A stretch of 42,179 nucleotides of DNA from a virus (Duplodnaviria; Heunggongvirae; Uroviricota; Caudoviricetes). The stretch covers positions 1 to 42,179 of IMG/VR virus record IMGVR_UViG_2778261252_000010; one strand, 5' to 3'. Within the stretch, counting starts at the first letter, position 1. Each line of letters starts with the position of its first letter. The notes under the pieces were generated by a model. It searched no databases. It was not told the DNA's origin and saw only the letters and a program-made list of their open reading frames with translations. The position numbers were made by a program, and so were the translations under genes. This document shows, in pieces, positions 1,009 through 42,179 of this stretch.

Positions 1009-1083
1009 GTCCTCTTAGTTAAATGGATATAACGAGCCCCTCCTAAGGGCTAATTGCAGGTTCGATTCCTGCAGGGGACACCA
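1009..1083 (+). tRNA. argW: tRNA-Arg (anticodon CCU)
   Basis: 75 nt folding as a cloverleaf: acceptor GTCCTCT/AGGGGAC, anticodon stem AGCCC/GGGCT with loop CTCCTAA (anticodon CCT), T-arm GCAGG-TTCGATT-CCTGC, 3' ACCA. Confidence 0.85.
1069..1083. repeat. attL core: 15-bp CTGCAGGGGACACCA at the tRNA 3' end, repeated at 40854..40868
   Basis: Exact 15-bp direct repeat at both prophage borders; the left copy is the 3' terminus of argW. Confidence 0.7.
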
Positions 1084-1199
1084 TTTATCAGTTCGCTCCC
1101 ATCCGTACTAGTCCGCAAAATCCCCTGCATATCAAGCCTTCCGTAGATTCACAGTTCGGCATGGTTCGCGTCAGATCGTTGACAGCCGCACACCATGAC

Positions 1200-1244
1200 G
1201 GGTAAAAAGTGGATAAAATAATTTTACCCACCGGATTTTTACCC
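1200..1244. promoter_or_regulatory. Cluster of GGGTAAAA-type repeats in both orientations directly upstream of intS (putative integrase/excisionase binding sites overlapping the intS promoter)
   Basis: GGGTAAAAA, GGATAAAAT, TTTTACCC and TTTTTACCC within 45 bp ending at the intS ATG; the same motif recurs at the torI end (40775..40795). Confidence 0.4.
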
Positions 1245-2399
1245 ATGCTCACCGTTAAGCAGATTGAAGCAGCAAAGCCGAAAGAAAAACCATACCGCCT
1301 TCTCGATGGTAATGGCCTGTACCTTTATGTCCCTGTGTCAGGGAAAAAGGTATGGCAGCTTCGCTACAAGATTGACGGTAAGGAGAAAATCCTGACCGTA
1401 GGAAAATATCCGCTAATGACTTTGCAGGAGGCAAGAGATAAAGCATGGACCGCGAGGAAAGACATCTCGGTTGGCATCGATCCGGTAAAAGCGAAAAAGG
1501 CTTCGTCTAACAACAATTCCTTTAGTGCAATTTACAAGGAATGGTACGAGCACAAGAAGCAAGTATGGTCAGTAGGCTATGCAACTGAGCTTGCCAAAAT
1601 GTTTGATGACGACATTTTACCCATCATCGGCGGTCTTGAGATTCAGGATATTGAGCCGATGCAACTGCTGGAAGTAATCCGCAGATTTGAAGATCGCGGT
1701 GCAATGGAACGAGCCAACAAAGCCCGCAGAAGATGCGGCGAGGTTTTCCGTTACGCTATTGTCACCGGAAGGGCTAAATATAACCCGGCACCTGACCTTG
1801 CAGACGCCATGAAAGGATACCGCAAGAAGAACTTCCCGTTTCTTCCAGCAGACCAGATCCCTGCATTCAACAAAGCACTGGCAACATTTTCAGGAAGTAT
1901 CGTATCGCTCATTGCGACCAAAGTTTTACGCTACACAGCCCTAAGAACGAAAGAGCTTCGCTCCATGCAATGGAAGAACGTCGATTTTGAAAACAGGATT
2001 ATCACCATCGACGCCAGTGTGATGAAGGGACGCAAAATTCATGTGGTCCCGATGTCAGACCAGGTGGTTGAACTTCTCACTACGCTAAGCTCAATCACTA
2101 AACCAGTATCAGAGTATGTTTTTGCCGGGCGCAACGATAAGAAGAAGCCAATTTGCGAGAACGCTGTACTACTTGTGATCAAACAAATCGGATATGAGGG
2201 TCTGGAAAGCGGACACGGATTCAGGCATGAATTCAGCACGATTATGAACGAGCACGAATGGCCTGCTGACGCGATTGAGGTTCAACTGGCGCATGCCAAC
2301 GGTGGATCTGTGCGCGGGATTTACAACCATGCTCAGTATCTGGATAAGCGCAGAGAAATGATGCAGTGGTGGGCTGATTTCATTGACGGAAAAGCATGA
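1245..2399 (+). CDS. intS: Tyrosine recombinase / prophage integrase (P4-like family)
   Basis: ORF next to the tRNA; N-terminus MLTVKQIEAAKP typical of P4-family integrases; C-terminal catalytic region with R..H..R..Y-type residues; start taken at the second Met (1245) of the 1209..2399 ORF. Confidence 0.8.
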   Translation: MLTVKQIEAAKPKEKPYRLLDGNGLYLYVPVSGKKVWQLRYKIDGKEKILTVGKYPLMTLQEARDKAWTARKDISVGIDPVKAKKASSNNNSFSAIYKEWYEHKKQVWSVGYATELAKMFDDDILPIIGGLEIQDIEPMQLLEVIRRFEDRGAMERANKARRRCGEVFRYAIVTGRAKYNPAPDLADAMKGYRKKNFPFLPADQIPAFNKALATFSGSIVSLIATKVLRYTALRTKELRSMQWKNVDFENRIITIDASVMKGRKIHVVPMSDQVVELLTTLSSITKPVSEYVFAGRNDKKKPICENAVLLVIKQIGYEGLESGHGFRHEFSTIMNEHEWPADAIEVQLAHANGGSVRGIYNHAQYLDKRREMMQWWADFIDGKA

Positions 2400-4522: not shown

Positions 4523-5425
4523 TCAGTAGTTATGTACTGAAGGAGGTAATTCTTTATTCTTAAGTCTCATCCATGCGGAAAGATTCGTTGGTCCGTCTGG
4601 CTCATTGATATCAACATCTCGTGTGTGATTGATTAAAACGTCTCTCGCCATTCCGATAACATACGAGAATTCATGACCGTAGTCGTAGCATCTGCCGGAA
4701 TAGTTCGATTGAATTTGTTTTAATGCCGGATACAGTTCGCGGAATAATGCCTGTGAACGGTTGGCATAATCCCATAACCATACAAGGCTGTTTGCTTCTT
4801 TTGCAGAAAGCTCGTTGGTTTTCTTCTCTTGTTTGCCAATGAACTCACCTTCAAGCACTACCCTGTGGATGTACTCTACTGCTTGCGGTATCTGAGATGC
4901 ATCAAGCTCTTCAATACTTTCCACATTGAAACGCTGATGAATCATTGCATAAGCTTCTGGGTACATTAGATGCTTTTTGCTGACTAGCATATTTACAGCA
5001 TCACGAAGCGGAGTCCTGTCATCAACAGATGTTTTCTTACGTGCATTTTCTGCCTTTCCCTTCGTCCAGTAGTCATGCAGCACAGTAAAGCATTCCTCCT
5101 GGTACTGAATCAGTTTATCGCGTATGTCAGCACGAACTTTCTCAGGGTTGATGCTGAACAGCCATCCATTTAACTTCTTCAAAGGAAGGCAGAGTAGCTT
5201 ACGAAGCTTACCATCAGCGGCAACCATATTCATATGAATACAGTTGAACTTATCTAGTTGTTTCATAAGTTTTTGTTGCTGAGTACCCCAGCTCATTCCG
5301 AGGTTTTCAACGATTGGCTTCATCGCAACATATGCAACTCCGGCAGCCATGGCGGTGATAATCTGCTGACCATTGAAAGGTACGTAAGAGGTGTTCACTG
5401 CTTCTAAAATTGCTATACTATTCAT
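4523..5425 (-). CDS. ant: Antirepressor Ant (P22 immI type)
   Basis: 300-aa product beginning [22 protein letters not shown] from the Met preceded by a GGAG ribosome-binding site; position downstream of arc in a mnt-arc-ant arrangement. Confidence 0.75.
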
Positions 5426-5487
5426 GTTGGTTTTTCTCCACGGATTTACCGACAACCGAAGCCCTGACTGTTACCGCAGTTGGGGCT

Positions 5488-5670
5488 TCACTGTTTTATG
5501 TTCACATCTAACATTGTTTTTCTAGAATTTAACTCTTTCCCCATCGCTTCAACGCAAAGAGATACACAACCACTACAGATAAATATCTCTGCTTTAGCGC
5601 GAATCAACATTGCACATTCATGCTGAGGCTTTCCGCAGAAGGAGCACTTAAAGCCATCTTCTTTATTCAT
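5488..5670 (-). CDS. 60-aa protein resembling the ClpX N-terminal C4 zinc-binding domain
   Basis: KCSFCGKPQHECAMLI...ICSGCVSLC aligns with ClpX YCSFCGKSQHEVRKLI...ICDECVDLC (same Cys spacing); start ATG overlaps the arc stop (ATGA) and is preceded by a GAGGG ribosome-binding site. Confidence 0.6.
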   Translation of the reverse strand: MNKEDGFKCSFCGKPQHECAMLIRAKAEIFICSGCVSLCVEAMGKELNSRKTMLDVNIKQ

Positions 5671-5819
5671 ATCGCCACACCCTCTCTCTTCAGGCTGTCT
5701 ATCAGGCGCTTGATAACCTCTGAGTTAAACGACCTGCACTCTTCCTTTGCCCTGCTACCGATAGCATCCTTTAACGACTGCGGCATCCTTACCAAAATCT
5801 TACTTATTTCTTTCTCCAT
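5667..5819 (-). CDS. arc: Arc-like ribbon-helix-helix repressor
   Basis: 50-aa product MEKEISKILVRMPQ...CRSFNSEVIKRL with an Arc/MetJ-type RHH signature; GGAGGG ribosome-binding site; divergent from mnt. Confidence 0.7.
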   Translation of the reverse strand: MEKEISKILVRMPQSLKDAIGSRAKEECRSFNSEVIKRLIDSLKREGVAI

Positions 5820-5933
5820 GTTACCCTCCACACAAACAACTCTTTTCGAATACAAAAGATAGCAAAGTGAGTATATCTAGTCAAAATTTTTTTGCATACA
5901 CTTTGATATCAAATTGAATACCAAAGGTGTGAT
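5820..5933. promoter_or_regulatory. Divergent Pant/Pmnt promoter-operator region of immI
   Basis: 114-bp AT-rich intergenic region between divergent arc and mnt; by analogy with P22 immI. Individual operators not resolved. Confidence 0.4.
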
Positions 5934-6185
5934 ATGGCAAAGGGTGTGTCAATTTCTCCAACTACGGTAAGAATCCCTGAATCTTTACGCGAGGCTCTTG
6001 CTGTCAGAGCATCAAAAAATGGTCGCTCTGTTAACTCCGAGATCGTCATGATTTTGCAAGCCGCGATTGATGAAGATAGGTCGCCAAAGTCAGTTGAGTC
6101 ATTTGCTCAGCAAGAAGCTGACAAATTCAAAGAGGCGCTGCTTGAGACGCTGAGGAACATGCAAGAAAACAAAAAACCCACCTGA
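5934..6185 (+). CDS. mnt: Mnt-like repressor (ribbon-helix-helix)
   Basis: 83 aa, same length as P22 Mnt, with N-terminal RHH motif (RIPESLREALAVRASKNGRSVNSEI). Confidence 0.7.
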   Translation: MAKGVSISPTTVRIPESLREALAVRASKNGRSVNSEIVMILQAAIDEDRSPKSVESFAQQEADKFKEALLETLRNMQENKKPT

Positions 6186-6199
6186 AGGTGGGTTTTATA
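6171..6199. terminator. Bidirectional intrinsic terminator between mnt and the convergent gene
   Basis: CCCACC-tgaa-GGTGGG hairpin flanked by an A-run upstream and a T-run downstream. Confidence 0.6.
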
Positions 6200-6200
6200 A

Positions 6201-7187
6201 TTAGATTTCTGGTTTTATTCTTCCAAAAACCTTTTCTATTCCTTTTTCGTATTCTTCTCTTGTCTCGCTCATCGCTGCGACACCAAGAAGCTTACCGATA
6301 TGCTGACGCAAAGCCTTGACACCAATTTCAGAAAGGAACAGGTGCAACTTATCAGATTGTTTTCCGTTCTCGTCTCGGCTGGCTCGAATCTGTTCAAGGA
6401 TTTTACCTTTACTCTTTGCTAGAGGAGTGTATATCTGCATGTTGGTTAGCTGCCCAAAACGAATTGGACGTCCTTTCTCTGGCCTGTTCAGGCCGTACAG
6501 TCGATACCACTCCTCATATAGCTCATCTGGAAATTCTTTTTCATACTGCCTCGCCTCTTCACGAACAAAGGCCTTGAAGGAATCAATAACCTCCTGTACT
6601 TCAGGTCGATATCCTGCAATAGCATAACCAAGTCCTTTAAGCCCTGCTTTCATTGATGCGGTAACAAGTCTTTGGGCAAGGCTGGCAGATTTTGATCTTG
6701 AAGGCGGTAGAGCGCCAGCTCGATCGGCATTAATCATTGCTGTGGCTATATCGCCGATAAGGGCAATATCGTAACCGTGAGCCTCATCAGCGAGTGGATT
6801 TGGGGCTGAGTTTGGGACCGGACTTCTCCATTGAAAAATAAGAGGTTTTTTGAATTTTTCTAGCAGAAATGGATCAACAAAATCAGCCATATAATTCGTA
6901 TTTAGAAAACGGTCTACATCCCTACCATGCTCACCGATTCCTAGTAATTTAGCCAGACCAGTTTTACTAACTACAACCGTTTTATCATTATCATCAAGTA
7001 CGTAACATTCTGCATCAATGCCGAAATCATCAATGAAGTTACCCTTTCTGATCGCTCTTAGTGGCTTACCTTCCCATCGTTTTGCCGCTGCTTTCTTTGC
7101 TATTTCAGAACGCTGCTCTTTAGTCAGCGACTTTGCGCGAGCGATCCCGCCCTTAGCTTTCCCTTCGCCACTTTTCTTTTCAGTCAT
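6201..7187 (-). CDS. Hypothetical phage protein, paralog of the cI-downstream gene 33149..34069 (possibly P63C-type regulator domain; unverified)
   Basis: 329 aa from an ATG with AGGTG ribosome-binding site (the ORF track extends to 7262); shares blocks with the 33149..34069 product (AECYVLDD vs IDCYVLD; FPDELYEEWYRLYG vs FPDELWEEFGRLTG). Confidence 0.65.
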   Translation of the reverse strand: MTEKKSGEGKAKGGIARAKSLTKEQRSEIAKKAAAKRWEGKPLRAIRKGNFIDDFGIDAECYVLDDNDKTVVVSKTGLAKLLGIGEHGRDVDRFLNTNYMADFVDPFLLEKFKKPLIFQWRSPVPNSAPNPLADEAHGYDIALIGDIATAMINADRAGALPPSRSKSASLAQRLVTASMKAGLKGLGYAIAGYRPEVQEVIDSFKAFVREEARQYEKEFPDELYEEWYRLYGLNRPEKGRPIRFGQLTNMQIYTPLAKSKGKILEQIRASRDENGKQSDKLHLFLSEIGVKALRQHIGKLLGVAAMSETREEYEKGIEKVFGRIKPEI

Positions 7188-7343
7188 AATGCAAGCACCT
7201 TTATTGTGATGTATGCTTGCATTATATGCACTGTACACACATACAAGCAAGCATAAAACCAAAACAAAATGCTTGCATTACAACCGCGCTACTCCAACTA
7301 CACATTATCATCTGGTATCCTGCGCAAAACTAAGGAGGTTGGT

Positions 7344-7838
7344 GTGTCTGATTCTATGAGTTACGCTGTGCTAGTTGCCGCAACTCTATTTCTGGGGATA
7401 GGGTTGCAGATTGCGTGGTTCTTTTTTTCTAGTTTTATTAAACGTAAAAGAATTGAATCAAGGATATCTGAGATTTCTATTGCTATAGGGAAAAATGCTG
7501 AAAATCCAGAGAATGAGGCCTGCGCACTGAATTACCTTAAAGAAAAGTTTTCCCCTGAAAAATTTGAAAACAGAATTACTGATGCTCTTGGATTGGTAAT
7601 ATCAGTAATTCATATGCCACTAAGTTTGCTGATAACAGTGTGGTACTTCGCCATGATCGCCGGAAGAATATTTGGTTTCATGAATATAGAGCCTGTAGTT
7701 CTTTGGGTTCCAATGATACTGCAATTGTTGTTAAGCGTTGCTATCTTTATTTTTTCTGTTTTTATAAAAATTGTCTTCGGAAGATACCCCGGAGAAGCGA
7801 AGGGATTTAATAAAGAATTCATAAAAACTATAAAATAA
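7344..7838 (+). CDS. Small polytopic inner-membrane protein in the sieA position (putative superinfection-exclusion or moron product)
   Basis: AT-rich ORF with several hydrophobic helices; strong AAGGAGG ribosome-binding site before GTG 7344 (in-frame ATG at 7356 is an alternative start); opposite strand to the late operon. Confidence 0.55.
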
Positions 7839-7860
7839 ATGCCGTCCTTGGCTTACAGTG

Positions 7861-9735
7861 CTACTGCCGGGTAGCTTCGTTAACTAAGAGCGGGCGCACG
7901 GCAGTAGCCGCCTGATTTAGCGCTCTTTCATAAGCTGGCGTTCCAGCTTTAGTGTTTGCCAGACGTAAGAGCGCATTCCTTGCTGCTTTGGATTCATACA
8001 AGCGCATCATTGCACCGAAACCAGCCTCAAGCCCCATTGATACGCCAAGAGTCGTAGTTGCGCCAATCGTCCTTATCCTGTTGGCTTGCGATTGCCCCGT
8101 CTGAGTTACTACATTTGCGGTGTCTGATCTTGCTGTTTGCTGTAGAACTTCATGAAGAGCATCAAGCTCTTTCATGTGCTTTCCAGAAAAAATAGTGTTG
8201 TAAATTTCACCGCCTGACTGAGATTTAAGCTTATTAACTTCAGTGATGAACTTGGCTGGAGAGTCACCGGCCTTTTCCGCTATTTTGCTGACGTAAGCTG
8301 CACGCATAGCATCTTTCCCTTTATCATCCAATGCGCTCCAGATTCGTTTCACGTCAGATGGTTTTCTGCTTAATACAACGGTATTTATAAGTTCAGGACT
8401 GGCTTCACTGCTTGCCTTGTTGAGCTTGTTAGCAATGTTTTTATTAAGCACCTTATTATAAACGTTTGCATAATCGGAATTTGCTTTAAGGTATTTTGCT
8501 GCGTCTGATGCACCGAGGTTTTTAGCAACTGCGTTACGAAGGTCTTTTGACATTGCATTCTCTACCATATTGGTAGCTGCTTTTGCCTGGTTGGGGAAGA
8601 CCATAGCATCTCCCTGAACATTAGATCTAAATGCTGTTCTGTGCTGACGCAAGAGATCAAACGTAACATCCAAATCAGTTGCAGGGTTTGCTAATTCTTC
8701 ACGTAGGTTACGCAAGGATGTAAGCAGGCTTTGATTGGCAGACGTCCCAAGCCGTTCCTGTCTTGCGATCGCTGTATTCAGAGCATTCATGGTATTTGTG
8801 GTATCAACTGCGGCATTACCCATTTTATTGGTGACGTCATTGATAACAGCGCCAGCGGCATCCTTCCGCCCCCTTAACGTGGTGGTAAGAGATTTCACCA
8901 CATCATCAGGGTTGTACTCACCAAACCGGTCAAAATAATTACTTACCAGCTTACTACGCGTTGCATATTGCTCCGCTCGCTTTGAGCCTGTCCCGAGCAA
9001 AGCCCCCTCGGCATCCTGAGTTAGGCCGCGAGTGAAAGCATTTTTCGGCGGGATAACATCAGATGTCATTGGTGTCACGCCCATCGATTCTGATGTGGCA
9101 ATTTTCTTCGCCACTTCTGGCGCAATATCACCTTTTATAGCCGTTATTCCACGCCCTATTCCCTTTGCTGCTGCGGAAAGAACACCCTGAGCGGCAAGGT
9201 TAACTCCGGCATTTTTAGCTGCATTTTGTGCGAAATCGCCTTTCTGATTTGCGGCCTCTGCCAGTGATCCAATAGCCATGCTTCCTGCCGTTCCAACTCC
9301 TGGAACTAAATACCCGCCAATTGTTTCTCCAGCTTGCGCATAAGGGTCTGTCGGTCGATCGACTGGACGATAGACATCATCCAATACTTTTGGCCCACCA
9401 AGCCCCTGACTGATTGCATTAATCAGACTTGCGCCACCCTGCAATACGTCAAATGGTATGTTTACCAGACCACGACCAGCCTGTTCTGCAATTTGCCCTG
9501 CACTTTGACCACCAGTGAGCCAATCGCCAGCTTGTTGCATCAATGATGGTTCTTCTTTCTGCTGCTGAGGCGGAGGGTATGCTGCATAAAACTGATCTCT
9601 TGCTTCAGCCCATTTGTCACCAGCCTTAGGGGCAACAACCTCATCAAAATATTGCGCTTGAGCCTGTGCTTTCTGTTCTTCAGTTAACGCCTGATACTGT
9701 GGAGAGGCGATAACATCTTTCCATGCTTTAGCCAT
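7861..9735 (-). CDS. Ejection (internal virion) protein, P22 gp16-like
   Basis: 624 aa, Ala/Gln/Gly-rich; N-terminus [22 protein letters not shown] and position match P22 gene 16. Confidence 0.75.
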
Positions 9736-32406: not shown

Positions 32407-33114
32407 ATGGTTCAGAATGAAAAAGTGCGCAAAGAATTCGCCCAGCGGCTAGCGCAAGCCTGTAAAGAAGCTGGTCTTGATGAACATGGTAGGGGGATGG
32501 CCATAGCCCGTGCCCTTTCTCTTTCGTCCAAAGGCGTTAGCAAATGGTTTAATGCTGAGTCTTTACCGCGTCAGGAAAAAATGAATGCGCTTGCGAAATT
32601 TCTAAACGTTGATGTTGTTTGGCTTCAGCACGGAACTTCGTTAAATGGAGCGAATGATGAAGATACTCTTTCATTTGTTGGCAAATTAAAAAAAGGGTTA
32701 GTGCGCGTGGTTGGTGAGGCAATTCTTGGTGTTGATGGTGCCATCGAGATGACCGAAGAGCGCGATGGGTGGCTCAAAATTTATAGCGATGATCCTGATG
32801 CCTTTGGTCTTCGTGTGAAAGGAGACAGCATGTGGCCCAGAATAAAATCAGGAGAATATGTACTCATTGAGCCTAACACCAAAGTCTTCCCGGGTGATGA
32901 GGTGTTTGTCAGAACCATCGAAGGACACAACATGATCAAGATTCTTGGCTATGACAGAGATGGAGAATACCAGTTTACAAGCATCAACCAAGACCACAGG
33001 CCAATAACGTTGCCTTATCATCAAGTAGCAAAGGTGGAGTATGTGGCTGGTATTCTGAAGCAATCTCGTCATCTGGATGACATCGAGGCAAGGGAGTGGC
33101 TGAAAAATTCGTGA
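32407..33114 (+). CDS. CI-type prophage repressor (HTH plus LexA-like S24 peptidase domain)
   Basis: 235 aa; N-terminal HTH; C-terminal autocleavage domain with GDSM Ser motif and downstream Lys. Confidence 0.8.
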   Translation: MVQNEKVRKEFAQRLAQACKEAGLDEHGRGMAIARALSLSSKGVSKWFNAESLPRQEKMNALAKFLNVDVVWLQHGTSLNGANDEDTLSFVGKLKKGLVRVVGEAILGVDGAIEMTEERDGWLKIYSDDPDAFGLRVKGDSMWPRIKSGEYVLIEPNTKVFPGDEVFVRTIEGHNMIKILGYDRDGEYQFTSINQDHRPITLPYHQVAKVEYVAGILKQSRHLDDIEAREWLKNS

Positions 33115-33148: not shown

Positions 33149-34069
33149 ATGAGACGTTTGGGTGATTCAACGCAGCGAAAAAGGGTAATTCAATTAATGG
33201 AACATGATGATTTACAGCAATTACCATCCCCATTCGCAAAATGGAAGGGGAAGATCGACTTAGGTGGTGAAAGTATTGATTGCTATGTGCTTGACACTGG
33301 ACATCGTGTTATAGCTTTGCGAGCAACTGTAAAAGCAATTGCCAATGCGGAGTCAGGAGACCTGGCTAAATTTATTGGCGTTAGCTCACTTAATGGCTTT
33401 ATAGACAAAGACTTAGTCCTGGCCGAACTCATAGAGTTTTCCATACCAGGAACCCAATTTAAGAGCCAAGGACTTAAGACTGAGCAATTTGAATTGATTT
33501 GTCGCGGCTATGTACAGGCGCTATACAAAGGCGCGCCATTGACAGATAGACAGCGAGAAATAGCAATTAAATGTGCTGTATTAACAGCTGGTTTAACTAG
33601 GACTGGGTTAGATGCTCTAATTGATGAGGCTACTGGGTATCAGTATGAGCGTGCAGAGGATGCTCTCCAAGTAAAACTCAGGGCGTTCATCGCTGAGGAA
33701 CTAAGAGCATGGGAAAAAACATTTCCTGATGAGTTATGGGAAGAATTTGGTAGATTGACAGGATGGAGCACCCCATTGCAATCAAGGCCCAAATGGTGGG
33801 GGAAATTGGTTATAGAGTTAATTTATGACACTCTTGACGAAGATGTGGCTAAATATCTTAAAGAAAACAAGCCTGCGGCAGGAGTTCACTGGCATAGACA
33901 GTTAACCGAGAACCTAGGTGTAAGGCAGCTTGTATCAAGGTGCTGGGAGGTTATTGGGGTCGCAAAAACATGCGACACCATGCATGAGCTAAGAAGTCGA
34001 GTTGCTCAACACTATGGAAAGAAACCTGTTCAAATGACAATGTATTTACCGGAAAAAGAAATTAAATAA
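33149..34069 (+). CDS. Hypothetical protein in the rexAB position (co-oriented with cI), paralog of 6201..7187; candidate lysogen-expressed exclusion/defense gene
   Basis: 306-aa ORF 35 bp after cI and before the terminator and OL/pL; shares sequence blocks with 6201..7187. Confidence 0.65.
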   Translation: MRRLGDSTQRKRVIQLMEHDDLQQLPSPFAKWKGKIDLGGESIDCYVLDTGHRVIALRATVKAIANAESGDLAKFIGVSSLNGFIDKDLVLAELIEFSIPGTQFKSQGLKTEQFELICRGYVQALYKGAPLTDRQREIAIKCAVLTAGLTRTGLDALIDEATGYQYERAEDALQVKLRAFIAEELRAWEKTFPDELWEEFGRLTGWSTPLQSRPKWWGKLVIELIYDTLDEDVAKYLKENKPAAGVHWHRQLTENLGVRQLVSRCWEVIGVAKTCDTMHELRSRVAQHYGKKPVQMTMYLPEKEIK

Positions 34070-34076
34070 TATACAA

Positions 34077-34102
34077 CCCGGCCTCAGCGCCGGGTTTTCT
34101 TT
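34077..34102 (+). terminator. Intrinsic terminator ending the cI operon
   Basis: CCCGGC-ctcagc-GCCGGG hairpin followed by TTTTCTTT. Confidence 0.65.
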
Positions 34103-40579: not shown

Positions 40580-40780
40580 ATGCAACACGAACTACAGCCT
40601 GATTCACTGGTTGATTTGAAATTCATCATGGCCGATACTGGCTTCGGTAAAACCTTCATCTATGACCGGATTAAGTCCGGGGACCTGCCTAAAGCCAAAG
40701 TTATCCACGGGCGAGCAAGATGGTTATATCGTGACCATTGTGAATTCAAAAATAAGCTCTTAAGCCGCGCCAATGGGTAA
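40580..40780 (+). CDS. torI: Excisionase / recombination directionality factor TorI
   Basis: 66 aa (MQHELQPDSLVDLKFIMADTGFGKTFIYDRI...), matches KplE1 TorI as remembered; winged-helix Xis/AlpA-like; sits at the prophage end opposite intS. Confidence 0.8.
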   Translation: MQHELQPDSLVDLKFIMADTGFGKTFIYDRIKSGDLPKAKVIHGRARWLYRDHCEFKNKLLSRANG

Positions 40781-41309: not shown

Positions 41310-42179
41310 CTATATTGCTGAAGGTACAGGCGTTTCCATAACTATTTGCTCGCGTTTTTTACTCAAGAAGAAAATGCCAAATAGCAACATCAGGCAGACA
41401 ATACCCGAAATTGCGAAGAAAACTGTCTGGTAGCCTGCGTGGTCAAAGAGTATCCCAGTCGGCGTTGAAAGCAGCACAATCCCAAGCGAACTGGCAATTT
41501 GAAAACCAATCAGAAAGATCGTCGACGACAGGCGCTTATCAAAATTTGCCACGCTGTATTTGAAGACGGATATGACACAAAGTGGAACCTCAATAGCATG
41601 TAACAGCTTCACTAATGAAATAATCCAGGGGTTAACGAACAGCGCGCAGGAAAGGATACGCAACGCCATAATCACAACACCGATAAGTAATGCATTTTTT
41701 GGCCCTACCCGATTCACAAAGAAAGGAATAATCGCCATGCATAGCGCTTCGAGTACCACCTGGAATGAGTTGAGATAACCATACAGGCGCGTTCCTACAT
41801 CGTGTGATTCGAATAAACCTGCATAAAAGACAGGAAAAAGTTGTTGATCAAAAATGTTATAGAAAGACCACGTCCCCACAATAAATATGACGAAAACCCA
41901 GAAGTTTCGATCCTTGAAAACTGCGATAAAATCCTCTTTTTTTACCCCTCCCGCATCCGCCGCTACGCACTGGTGATCCTTATCTTTAAAACACATGTTG
42001 ATCATCATAAATACAGCGCCAAATAGCGAGACCAACCAGAAGTTGATATGGGGACTGATACTAAAAAATATGCCGGCAAAGAACGCGCCAATAGCATAGC
42101 CAAAAGATCCCCAGGCGCGCGCTGTTCCATATTCGAAATGAAAATTTCGCGCCATTTTTTCGGTGAAGCTGTCAAGCAA
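41310..42179 (-). CDS. cscB: LacY-family oligosaccharide:H+ symporter, probably sucrose permease CscB (C-terminal 289 aa; N-terminus beyond the window)
   Basis: Strong LacY-like blocks (YNIFDQQLF, GTRLYGY, VNRVGPKNALLIG, KLLHAIEVPLCVISVFKY); csc genes are known to lie near argW in sucrose-positive E. coli; ORF runs to the window edge. Confidence 0.6.
   Translation of the reverse strand: MLDSFTEKMARNFHFEYGTARAWGSFGYAIGAFFAGIFFSISPHINFWLVSLFGAVFMMINMCFKDKDHQCVAADAGGVKKEDFIAVFKDRNFWVFVIFIVGTWSFYNIFDQQLFPVFYAGLFESHDVGTRLYGYLNSFQVVLEALCMAIIPFFVNRVGPKNALLIGVVIMALRILSCALFVNPWIISLVKLLHAIEVPLCVISVFKYSVANFDKRLSSTIFLIGFQIASSLGIVLLSTPTGILFDHAGYQTVFFAISGIVCLMLLFGIFFLSKKREQIVMETPVPSAI

What the first reader, a model, noticed from the sequence alone, without database searches (positions are those of the whole stretch)
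6201..7187. Second copy of the same protein family in the immI region next to the sieA-position membrane protein
The 329-aa product shares several colinear blocks with the cI-downstream protein (ECYVLDD/DCYVLD, FPDELYEEWYRLYG/FPDELWEEFGRLTG, and a similar C-terminal helical region). It lies between mnt and a divergent membrane-protein gene, the region where P22 carries sieA. Two diverged paralogs in the two classical lysogen-expressed exclusion slots of one prophage is unusual. They may be a two-part system or two specificities of one exclusion mechanism.
Basis: seen in the sequence. Interest (0 to 1): 0.7.

Follow-up and report, generated by a model that had tools for sequence, protein, structure and literature searches.

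The report
Two P63C-family cargo genes, one prophage
This E. coli P22-like prophage carries two distant copies (26% identical) of a widespread phage protein family of unknown function (P63C), each sitting as an independent, swappable cargo gene in a slot where related phages carry known or suspected anti-phage genes; they are candidates for a defence role, not a proven or two-part exclusion system.

Summary
The 328-aa product of 6201-7187(-) and the protein downstream of cI (33149-34069,+) align over about 294 residues (26% identity, E=1e-21). Both carry Pfam P63C and match phrog_2384 full-length.

The neighbouring membrane protein is SieA itself, so the gene occupies the sieA–mnt slot.

The family is catalogued but uncharacterised. 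It is not BstA: there is no PADLOC hit, and hhalign gives 3.7% probability. It has no PDB relative.

The two genes are not an obligate pair. All 60-62 matching phage records have one copy. In complete E. coli genomes the two assort independently: 74 and 11 genomes carry them, and at least 3 have both.

Each is a swappable cassette:
- With 99%-identical flanks, the immI cassette (6199-7290) is replaced by a Panacea-domain two-gene unit in strain LR-64-1.
- In ST104 a P63C cassette replaces aba+bstA of BTP1 behind the same repressor.

The immI copy has its own terminator, a TATAAT promoter and four ATGCAAGCA half-sites. These sites recur upstream of P63C genes that encode an N-terminal KGG…ARW motif, across alpha-, beta- and gamma-proteobacteria, which suggests autoregulation. 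The cI-linked copy lacks them and reads as a cI operon gene.

A defence function is plausible but inferred only from position.

The parts
6201..7187 (-). immI-slot P63C-family gene (328 aa). It has an N-terminal KGGIARAKSLTKEQRSEIAKKAAAKRW motif (about residues 10-38), a mixed alpha/beta N-domain (about 43-160), a helical linker, and a C-terminal P63C domain (205-292).
   Evidence: ORF. Pfam P63C E=9e-14. phrog_2384 E=1e-92. A 100% identical protein is annotated 'P63C domain-containing protein [Salmonella enterica]'. AF2 model pLDDT 71.
6173..6196 (.). Bidirectional rho-independent terminator shared by the convergent mnt and P63C genes. It marks the left boundary of the swappable cassette.
   Evidence: Terminator scan: 10-bp stem with 5 GC pairs, T-run on the minus strand and TTTTATAA on the plus strand. 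Homology to the LR-64-1 locus ends at 6198.
7186..7280 (-). Regulatory region of the immI P63C gene. Four half-sites ATGCAAGCA/TGCTTGCAT form two inverted repeats (7186-7197/7214-7225 and 7247-7254/7269-7280). They overlap a -10 TATAAT (7226-7221), a -35-like TTGCTT (7250-7245, 18-nt spacer), the SD AAAGGTG and the start codon.
   Evidence: Sequence. Repeats. The half-sites and -10 are conserved while the spacers diverge in ST104, 611R6 and Salmonella loci. The 8-mers occur nowhere else in the 42-kb window. 0/5000 shuffles reach the observed count.
6199..7290 (-). The whole mobile cassette (gene plus promoter/operators) as delimited by comparison with a prophage whose flanks are 99% identical.
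   Evidence: blastn of the window against E. coli LR-64-1: identity runs 5455-6198 and 7291-8200. In between, LR-64-1 has a Panacea-domain gene plus a 139-aa gene.
7344..7838 (+). sieA (superinfection exclusion protein A, 164 aa from GTG 7344), divergent from the P63C gene.
   Evidence: phrog_7745 E=1e-108, aligned from ORF residue 26. SD TAAGGAGGT lies upstream of GTG 7344. Carries the SieA motif [13 protein letters not shown].
5934..6185 (+). mnt (Arc/Mnt-family repressor of the immI region), convergent with the P63C gene.
   Evidence: Pfam Arc E=9e-11. Equivalent genes in related loci carry Repressor_Mnt PF11423.
32407..33114 (+). cI-type (S24/LexA-family) prophage repressor.
   Evidence: ORF. 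Annotated 'LexA family transcriptional regulator' in the 99.9% identical EC02 locus.
33149..34069 (+). cI-linked P63C-family paralog (306 aa from 33149; 290 aa if it starts at 33197 as PGAP calls it). It lacks the N-terminal KGG...ARW motif and the ATGCAAGCA sites.
   Evidence: Pfam P63C E=2.5e-22. phrog_2384 E=4e-87. Homologs are 75-90% identical across gamma-, beta- and alpha-proteobacteria. No sites upstream.
34075..34096 (.). Strong terminator immediately after the cI-linked paralog; it closes the inferred cI-P63C operon.
   Evidence: 8-bp stem with 6 GC pairs followed by TTTTCTTTG. No plus-strand terminator lies between the cI stop and the P63C start.

Best explanation
Shown:
- The two genes are independent, single-gene cargo cassettes ('morons') of the P63C family (Pfam PF10546 / phrog_2384). 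They are not parts of one system.
- Each sits in a recombinational hot-spot of lambdoid/P22-like phages and can be exchanged for other cargo.
- The immI copy is self-contained. It has its own sigma-70-type promoter, a bidirectional terminator, and four ATGCAAGCA half-sites that overlap the -35, the -10 and the start codon.
- The cI-linked copy has none of these features and sits between the cI stop and a strong terminator.

Inferred:
- The N-terminal KGG...ARW motif of the immI protein binds the half-sites and autorepresses the gene. This would give low, position-independent expression, including in the lysogen.
- The cI-linked copy is co-transcribed with cI from PRM, like rexAB or bstA.
- Both proteins are DNA-associated two-domain proteins: a Bro-N/KilA-N-like N-domain plus a helical P63C domain with invariant E211, R213, E216 and H282.
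- Both act in the lysogen against superinfecting phage, most likely at the level of incoming or replicating phage DNA, as BstA does functionally.
- The diverged N-domains would give the two copies different target ranges.
For: Homology and family. The family is large, with 3,589 representatives of 50%-identity clusters at E<=1e-3.

Independence of the two genes:
- One copy per record in all 60-62 phage records.
- Single-copy prophages of either kind exist.
- In 5,426 complete E. coli genomes, 74 carry immI-type DNA and 11 carry the cI-linked type. At least 3 have both in one prophage.

Cassette swaps with near-identical flanks:
- The P63C cassette is exchanged for a Panacea-domain gene plus a gene weakly similar to NsnC at the immI slot.
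- The P63C cassette is exchanged for aba+bstA behind an identical cI (ST104 against BTP1-like). BstA is an experimentally shown abortive-infection protein (PMC8585504).

Operon structure of the cI-linked copy. The same linkage to an S24 repressor is seen in Pseudomonas and Delftia.

Autonomy of the immI copy: terminator, promoter and operators.

Sites co-vary with the N-motif:
- Half-sites of the ATGCNNGC type cluster upstream of motif-bearing P63C genes in six lineages (window/611R6/Salmonella, ST104, Delftia, Rhodanobacter, Frateuria, Xanthobacteraceae). In five of the six, 0/5000 shuffles reach the observed count with either pattern; Delftia reaches it only with the GCAAGC-type pattern (ATGCNNGC count 1, 359/5000).
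- They are absent upstream of three motif-less genes.
- The Delftia, Rhodanobacter and Frateuria proteins have a core about 80% identical to the motif-less window paralog. The sites therefore follow the motif and not the core.

Other support:
- A solitary chromosomal copy with no phage genes within the 1.5 kb fetched on either side occurs in Rhodanobacter.
- Intragenic mosaicism: the P63C domain is 94-97% identical while the N-domain is 52-59%.
- Weak structural matches are dominated by Bro-N/KilA-N proteins.
Against: - No experiment exists for any P63C protein in the searched literature.
- There are no hits in PADLOC-DB v2 or NCBIfam.
- The defence role rests only on position and on what replaces the cassette.
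- The immI copy is co-oriented with the late operon (gp16, arc, ant, tailspike), so it could be a late or lytic gene.
- In 933W the family member lies in the nin region next to roi, inside the early lytic operon.
- The cI-linked subfamily is 75-90% identical across proteobacterial classes. That is atypical for a fast-evolving phage sensor. It fits better a protein that contacts a conserved host machine, or a regulator.
- The structure model is only moderate (pLDDT 71, pTM 0.5), and its Bro-N/KilA-N resemblance is not statistically significant (E 0.07-3).
- The link between N-motif and sites could reflect physical linkage of a 5' module, not binding.
- 933W has the motif but different repeats (ACGTGCAT).
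Confidence: 0.5

Rival explanations
1. The two paralogs form one two-part system (a hetero-oligomer, or a sensor plus effector) that only works when both are present.
For: Both occur in the same prophage here and in at least three other complete E. coli genomes. At genome level this is an enrichment: 3 of 11 carriers of the cI-linked type have the immI type, against 74 of 5,426 genomes overall. Homologous proteins often hetero-oligomerise.
Against: All 60-62 phage records have a single copy. Single-copy prophages of each type exist. The cI-linked subfamily is found alone in Pseudomonas, Delftia and Aureimonas. About 74 of the roughly 254 genomes that match the immI flanks carry the immI gene, so 3 of 11 is near the rate expected from independent assortment of P22-like modules. 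Each copy has its own separate expression signals.
Confidence: 0.07
2. P63C proteins are ordinary phage developmental regulators (Roi/antirepressor/Bro-type DNA-binding proteins) used in the phage's own lytic or decision circuitry, with no role in exclusion.
For: The 933W homolog lies in the nin region beside roi. The immI copy has the orientation of the late genes and sits in the regulatory immI region. Some family members have N-terminal Cro/YdaS HTH fusions. Weak fold matches go to Bro-N/KilA-N proteins. The cI-linked subfamily is very highly conserved. From my own knowledge, not read here: P63C was defined by Iyer et al. 2002 among domains of viral transcription regulators.
Against: A regulator that antagonises repression would be self-defeating in the cI operon, yet that linkage is conserved from E. 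coli to Delftia and Pseudomonas. The gene is dispensable and swaps with bstA or with a Panacea-domain two-gene unit. Most P22-like prophages lack it. A solitary chromosomal copy exists. Its own autoregulated promoter decouples it from the phage circuits.
Confidence: 0.3
3. They are divergent members of the BstA abortive-infection family.
For: Same size (about 300 aa), same slot behind cI, two-domain architecture with a possibly KilA-N/Bro-N-like N-domain. hhalign aligns YVLDD..T.VS.RGLAKLLG with GVLNDGTPYLT.RGLA.LCG. A DNA element spans the region upstream of the start codon, at the position where aba lies in bstA.
Against: BLASTP finds no similarity (E>1). The PADLOC BstA model scores real BstA at 1.9e-124 but neither window protein. 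BstA carries PF26567 and not P63C. Profile-profile probability is 3.7%.
Confidence: 0.03
4. The similarity is fortuitous or low-complexity, or one copy is a decaying pseudogene.
For: Identity is only 26%.
Against: E=1e-21 with composition-based statistics over 294 colinear residues. Both match the same full-length PHROG and Pfam models. Both ORFs are intact and each is >=99% identical to proteins found in many genomes.
Confidence: 0.01

Closest known systems
P63C domain family (Pfam PF10546, 'Bacteriophage Mx8 p63 C-terminal'; PHROG 2384), e.g. 933W L0095 and ST104 ORF23
   Same: Both window proteins are full-length members. They share domain order, length and conserved residues. The target is 100% identical to a Salmonella protein already annotated 'P63C domain-containing protein'.
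   Different: Nothing differs structurally. The family simply has no assigned function. New here are the slot analysis, the portable promoter/operator module and its link to the N-terminal motif.
BstA (BTP1 prophage abortive-infection protein with the aba self-immunity element; Owen et al. 2021, PMC8585504)
   Same: Single gene of about 300 aa behind the prophage repressor, ended by a terminator. In ST104 a P63C cassette occupies exactly the place of aba+bstA behind an identical cI. Both are found in prophages of several proteobacterial classes and sometimes outside prophages. In both, a repeated DNA element straddles the start of the gene.
   Different: No detectable sequence or profile similarity. 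Different Pfam families (PF26567 against PF10546). The aba sequence and its CCCGCC repeats are absent. No phenotype is known for P63C.
Lambda RexAB and other cI-operon exclusion genes
   Same: The cI-linked copy has the cI–cargo–terminator layout that lets a lysogen express an accessory gene from PRM.
   Different: RexAB is a two-protein membrane-depolarising system. P63C is one soluble-looking protein with no homology to Rex.
P22 immI region: sieA – orf59a – mnt (Leavitt et al. 2024, PMC10883804)
   Same: Same gene order and orientation of gp16, sieA, mnt, arc, ant and tailspike. The P63C gene sits where P22 has orf59a.
   Different: P22 has only a small ORF there. Here the slot holds a 1.1-kb autonomous cassette on the opposite strand to sieA and mnt. 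Other prophages hold a Panacea-domain two-gene unit, a ClpP-like gene or small ORFs in this slot.
Bro-N / KilA-N DNA-binding proteins of phages and large DNA viruses (Roi, Ant-type antirepressors)
   Same: The Foldseek hit list against viral models is dominated by Bro-N/KilA-N proteins. The N-domain is a beta-hairpin plus helix unit. The 933W homolog neighbours roi.
   Different: No hit reaches significance. No Pfam Bro-N, KilA-N or ANT match appears in any of 39 family members even at E<=10. The true Ant of this prophage is a separate gene (4523-5455).

Membership tests
P63C domain family (PF10546 / phrog_2384) | Match to the Pfam P63C model above the gathering score | tested here: met
   52.3 bits (target) and 79.7 bits (cI-linked copy) against a 26.1 cut-off. 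All 39 aligned homologs match.
P63C domain family (PF10546 / phrog_2384) | Full-length colinearity with other family members, N-domain included | tested here: met
   phrog_2384 is aligned over residues 6-327 and 14-303 of the two proteins. There are 20 invariant columns across both subfamilies.
BstA abortive-infection family | Sequence match to BstA (PADLOC PDLC02356 / Pfam PF26567 BstA-like C-terminal domain) | tested here: not met
   No PADLOC hit for either protein, while authentic BstA scores 1.9e-124. BLASTP E>1. hhalign probability 3.7%.
BstA abortive-infection family | KilA-N-like N-terminal DNA-binding domain | tested here: inconclusive
   Only weak Foldseek matches to Bro-N/KilA-N viral proteins (E 0.07-3). 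No PDB match. No Pfam KilA-N hit.
BstA abortive-infection family | Location directly downstream of the prophage repressor with its own terminator | tested here: met
   Met for the cI-linked copy and for ST104 ORF23. Not met for the target gene, which is in immI.
BstA abortive-infection family | Cognate aba DNA element that gives self-immunity, and an abortive-infection phenotype | not testable with these tools
   The BTP1 aba sequence is absent from ST104. Whether the ATGCAAGCA repeats play an analogous role needs experiments.
SieA (neighbouring gene, not the target) | SieA-family sequence, conserved cytoplasmic motif FxRYPxEAxxFNK, position after gene 16 | tested here: met
   phrog_7745 E=1e-108. 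Motif [13 protein letters not shown] is in the ORF (motif from PMC10883804). The gene is adjacent to gp16.
P22-type antirepressor (Ant) / Bro-N regulators | P22_AR_N/P22_AR_C, Bro-N, KilA-N or ANT domains | tested here: not met
   None of these models hits either P63C protein or any of 39 homologs. The prophage's Ant is a different gene, 4523-5455.
Known anti-phage defence systems (PADLOC-DB v2.0.0, 2023) | Match to any of 5,027 defence-protein models | tested here: not met
   Zero hits at E<=0.01 for both paralogs. Newer catalogues could not be searched.

The most novel reading that the evidence does not exclude
P63C proteins are a large, so far unrecognised family of single-gene, prophage-borne anti-phage (abortive-infection-like) proteins that act on phage DNA. 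A roughly 30-residue N-terminal KGG...ARW module together with clustered ATGCNNGC sites forms a portable autoregulatory unit. This unit lets the gene function in any genomic slot. By titrating the protein on replicating copies of its own phage, it could also provide aba-like self-immunity. Under this reading the prophage here stacks two specificities: one driven by PRM and one self-regulated.
Probability: 0.3. Interest if true: 0.7.

Novelty: new member of a known kind. Interest (0 to 1): 0.42.

Why it matters
If P63C proteins turn out to be defence proteins, a family with more than 3,500 representatives of 50%-identity clusters, spread across proteobacteria, actinobacterial phages and streptococcal satellites, would join the list of prophage-encoded immunity genes. 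The slots behind cI and between sieA and mnt would be confirmed as predictive defence hot-spots in P22-like and lambdoid phages.

Two testable handles come out of this work whatever the function is:
- A compact candidate operator/repressor module: the ATGCAAGCA half-sites plus the N-terminal motif.
- Natural 'allelic' swaps (P63C against bstA, P63C against the Panacea-domain two-gene unit) that provide isogenic comparisons.

As it stands, the finding is an ordinary example of mosaic cargo in a prophage. It involves a catalogued family of unknown function.

Tried and rejected
1. BstA identity. I recovered BTP1 bstA through its published aba sequence. I tested BLASTP, Pfam, PADLOC and hhalign. 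There is no relationship.

2. Known defence catalogues and NCBIfam gave no hits.

4. Literature. Searches for P63C with phage or prophage found no functional study. Brenes & Laub 2025 is not held. The DefensePredictor paper does not mention P63C.

5. RNA-hairpin reading of the proximal inverted repeat. I rejected it in favour of DNA operators for three reasons: the same half-site occurs four times in two pairs; the 5' arm overlaps the -10, so it would be largely untranscribed; and the sites are conserved while the spacers diverge.

6. Exact source genome. No complete E. coli genome holds the whole immI segment. The window is a mosaic of modules seen separately.

7. Not completed: five of the eleven genomes carrying the cI-linked type (TW14425, EC5931, 20AR0300, ETEC1749, ETEC4085) were not resolved for an immI copy. 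The TW14425 window I fetched missed the region.
Full report
**Setting.** The window is a complete P22-like (Lederbergvirus-type) prophage of E. coli integrated at argW.
- Left end: yfdC (1-933), tRNA-Arg(CCU) (1009-1083), then an IntS-type integrase (1209-2399).
- Then on the minus strand: tailspike, ant, a ClpX-zinc-finger ORF and arc.
- Then mnt (+), the target gene (-), sieA (+), gp16/gp20/gp7 and the rest of the virion genes (-).
- Then replication genes, cro/cI, the PL operon, and a TorI-type excisionase at the far end.
- The same layout, with annotation, is seen in E. coli EC28 and 14EC047.

**Observation.**
- The ORF 6201-7187 (-) gives 328 aa.
- Both proteins exceed the Pfam P63C gathering score and match phrog_2384 over their full length.
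- An alignment of 39 members of both subfamilies has 20 invariant columns from W38 to L293.
- The homology is therefore real and covers both domains.
- The divergent membrane protein is SieA itself (SieA motif from PMC10883804). The gene thus sits in the sieA–mnt interval, where P22 has orf59a.

**What the family is.**
- P63C is a catalogued domain family ('Mx8 p63 C-terminal') with no assigned function.
- The target is 100% identical to proteins in Salmonella P22-like prophages, always in the same slot. It is 75% identical to a protein of coliphage vB_EcoP-611R6 in the same slot.
- A profile search finds 3,589 representatives of 50%-identity clusters.
- Nothing matches in PADLOC-DB or NCBIfam, and no functional paper was found.
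- I suspected BstA, because of its size and its position behind cI, so I tested that directly. I recovered BTP1 bstA through the published aba sequence. BLASTP, Pfam, PADLOC and hhalign all deny a relationship.
- Against viral models, the sub-significant hits are dominated by Bro-N/KilA-N proteins. I treat this only as a hint that the N-domain binds DNA.

**One system or two?** The evidence points to two independent genes.
- Every phage record with a family member has a single copy: 60 of 60 and 62 of 62.
- In 5,426 complete E. coli genomes, immI-type DNA occurs in 74 and the cI-linked type in 11.
- Both lie 25-26 kb apart in one prophage in EC28 (verified), GPEC349-628 and WS4437A-1.
- Prophages with the cI-linked copy only are EC02 and S51 (myovirus-tailed lambdoids) and EC19 (P22-like, with other small ORFs in the immI slot).
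- 14EC047 and 611R6 have the immI copy only.
- About 74 of roughly 254 genomes with matching immI flanks carry the immI gene. Three of eleven is therefore close to what independent assortment predicts.
- The cI-linked subfamily also stands alone behind S24 repressors in Pseudomonas and Delftia prophages.

**Cassette behaviour.**
- Comparison with E. coli LR-64-1, whose flanks are 99% identical, delimits the immI cassette to 6199-7290. In its place LR-64-1 has a Panacea-domain gene plus a 139-aa gene with weak NsnC similarity, on the same strand.
- ST104 and BTP1-like prophages share an identical cI. Between cI and gene 24, ST104 has a P63C gene (ORF23, 32% identical to the target) exactly where BTP1 has aba+bstA.
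- In 933W the family member lies in the nin region beside roi.
- P63C genes are thus mobile cargo that land in several hot-spots. Two of these hot-spots alternately hold a proven abortive-infection gene or a Panacea-domain (antitoxin-type) unit.
- This positional association is the only evidence for a defence role.

**How the two copies are expressed (inferred from sequence).**
- The cI-linked copy follows the cI stop by 35 nt (or 83 nt from the PGAP-style start). There is no plus-strand terminator in between, and a strong terminator (34075-34096) follows it. This is the cI–cargo–terminator layout of rexAB and bstA.
- The immI copy ends at a bidirectional terminator shared with mnt (6173-6196).
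- It is preceded by a perfect TATAAT (7226-7221), a -35-like TTGCTT, a good SD, and four half-sites ATGCAAGCA/TGCTTGCAT arranged as two inverted repeats. These cover the -35, the -10 and the start codon.
- The half-site 8-mers occur nowhere else in the window.
- The same four sites and the -10 are conserved upstream of ST104 ORF23, although the spacers have diverged.

**An unexpected regularity.**
- The immI-type proteins carry an N-terminal motif, KGGxARAxxL(S/T)xExRxxIAxKAAxxRW, which the window's cI-linked paralog lacks.
- Some members of the cI-linked subfamily (Delftia, Rhodanobacter, Frateuria, Xanthobacteraceae) do have the motif. Their genes are preceded by clusters of the same kind of site:
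  - Delftia: AAGCAAGCA ×4.
  - Rhodanobacter: ATGCTTGC ×2 plus ATGCAAGCAT.
  - Frateuria: ATGCTTGC, ATGCGTGC, ATGCAAGCAT.
  - Xanthobacteraceae: ATGCCTGC/GCAGGCAT.
- In each of these lineages, 0 of 5,000 shuffles reach the observed count with at least one of the two patterns tested. For Delftia this holds only for the GCAAGC-type pattern; its single ATGCNNGC match is reached by 359/5000 shuffles.
- Three motif-less genes have no such cluster.
- The sites follow the motif and not the protein core. The simplest reading is that the motif is a small DNA-binding module that autorepresses the gene and makes the cassette independent of its position.
- Caveats: 933W has a motif variant with different repeats (ACGTGCAT). 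Physical linkage of a 5' module cannot be excluded.

**Other features.**
- The immI subfamily is internally mosaic. Some homologs are 94-97% identical in the P63C domain but only 52-59% in the N-domain, and others show the reverse pattern. This fits a variable recognition domain on a conserved C-terminal domain.
- The cI-linked subfamily is unusually conserved, at 75-90% identity from Enterobacterales to Pseudomonas, Burkholderiales and alpha-proteobacteria. This argues for a conserved partner and weighs somewhat against a fast-evolving sensor.

**Verdict.**
- The 'two-part system' reading is not supported.
- 'Two independent cargo genes of one uncharacterised family, possibly two specificities' is the best reading.
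- The family membership is already annotated in public records.
- What is new is contextual: the slot exchange with bstA and with the Panacea-domain unit, and the portable promoter/operator plus N-motif module.
- A defence function is plausible (I put it at roughly one in three) but rests on guilt by position. A role as a phage regulator remains a serious rival.

Noticed in passing
window 7186-7280; also L002 2861-2951, L030 4920-4960, L035/L036/L037 about 1380-1500: Clustered ATGCAAGCA-type (ATGCNNGC) half-sites lie upstream of P63C genes that encode the N-terminal KGG...ARW motif, in alpha-, beta- and gamma-proteobacteria. They are absent upstream of motif-less genes. This is a candidate portable autoregulatory module, with possible aba-like titration.
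   Followed up: partly
window 33149-34069 and homologs P0121-P0240: The cI-linked P63C subfamily is 75-90% identical across Enterobacterales, Pseudomonas, Burkholderiales, Xanthomonadales and alpha-proteobacteria, and 83.5% identical (tblastn) to a protein of a Paracoccus phage. That is unusually conserved for phage cargo. A few members carry N-terminal Cro/YdaS HTH fusions (PF14549, PF15943).
   Followed up: partly
L034 1839-2706 (E. coli LR-64-1), equivalent to window 6199-7290: With 99%-identical flanks, the sieA–mnt slot holds a Panacea-domain protein plus a 139-aa protein with weak similarity to PADLOC NsnC. This is a likely toxin-antitoxin or defence cargo. The slot is a hot-spot.
   Followed up: partly
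window 5488-5670 (-): A 60-aa ClpX C4 zinc-finger-only ORF lies between arc and ant (Pfam zf-C4_ClpX, E=8e-11). It is common in E. coli P22-like prophages. In one Salmonella locus (L023 11043-11579) a ClpP-family protease gene lies between the P63C gene and mnt.
   Followed up: no
window 1009-2399 and 40580-40780: The integrase lies next to argW at one prophage end and the TorI-type excisionase at the other (KplE1/Sf6/HK620-style split recombination module). The right flank looks like an MFS sugar permease (41310-42179).
   Followed up: no
L027 3033-4082 (phage 933W L0095): The Stx2 phage 933W carries a P63C gene in the nin region between a DNA methyltransferase and roi. It has its own upstream ACGTGCAT/ATGCACGT repeats. 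This shows the family is not restricted to lysogen-expressed slots.
   Followed up: partly
window 6201-7187 against P0001; loci L014-L023: The target protein is 100% identical in Salmonella enterica prophages integrated next to hut-operon genes (urocanase, aromatic-amino-acid-lyase family), although the flanking sieA types, small ORFs and mnt alleles differ. This indicates recent cassette exchange between Salmonella and E. coli phages.
   Followed up: partly
alignment A1, residues 41-160 against 201-295 of the target: Intragenic mosaicism: homologs P0016, P0021 and P0050 are 94-97% identical in the P63C domain but 52-59% in the N-domain; P0008 shows the reverse pattern.
   Followed up: yes
L035 1501-2496 (Rhodanobacter): A solitary P63C gene with the N-motif and upstream sites lies between an aminotransferase gene and a ketoacyl-synthase gene, with no phage genes within the 1.5 kb fetched on either side.
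   Followed up: no
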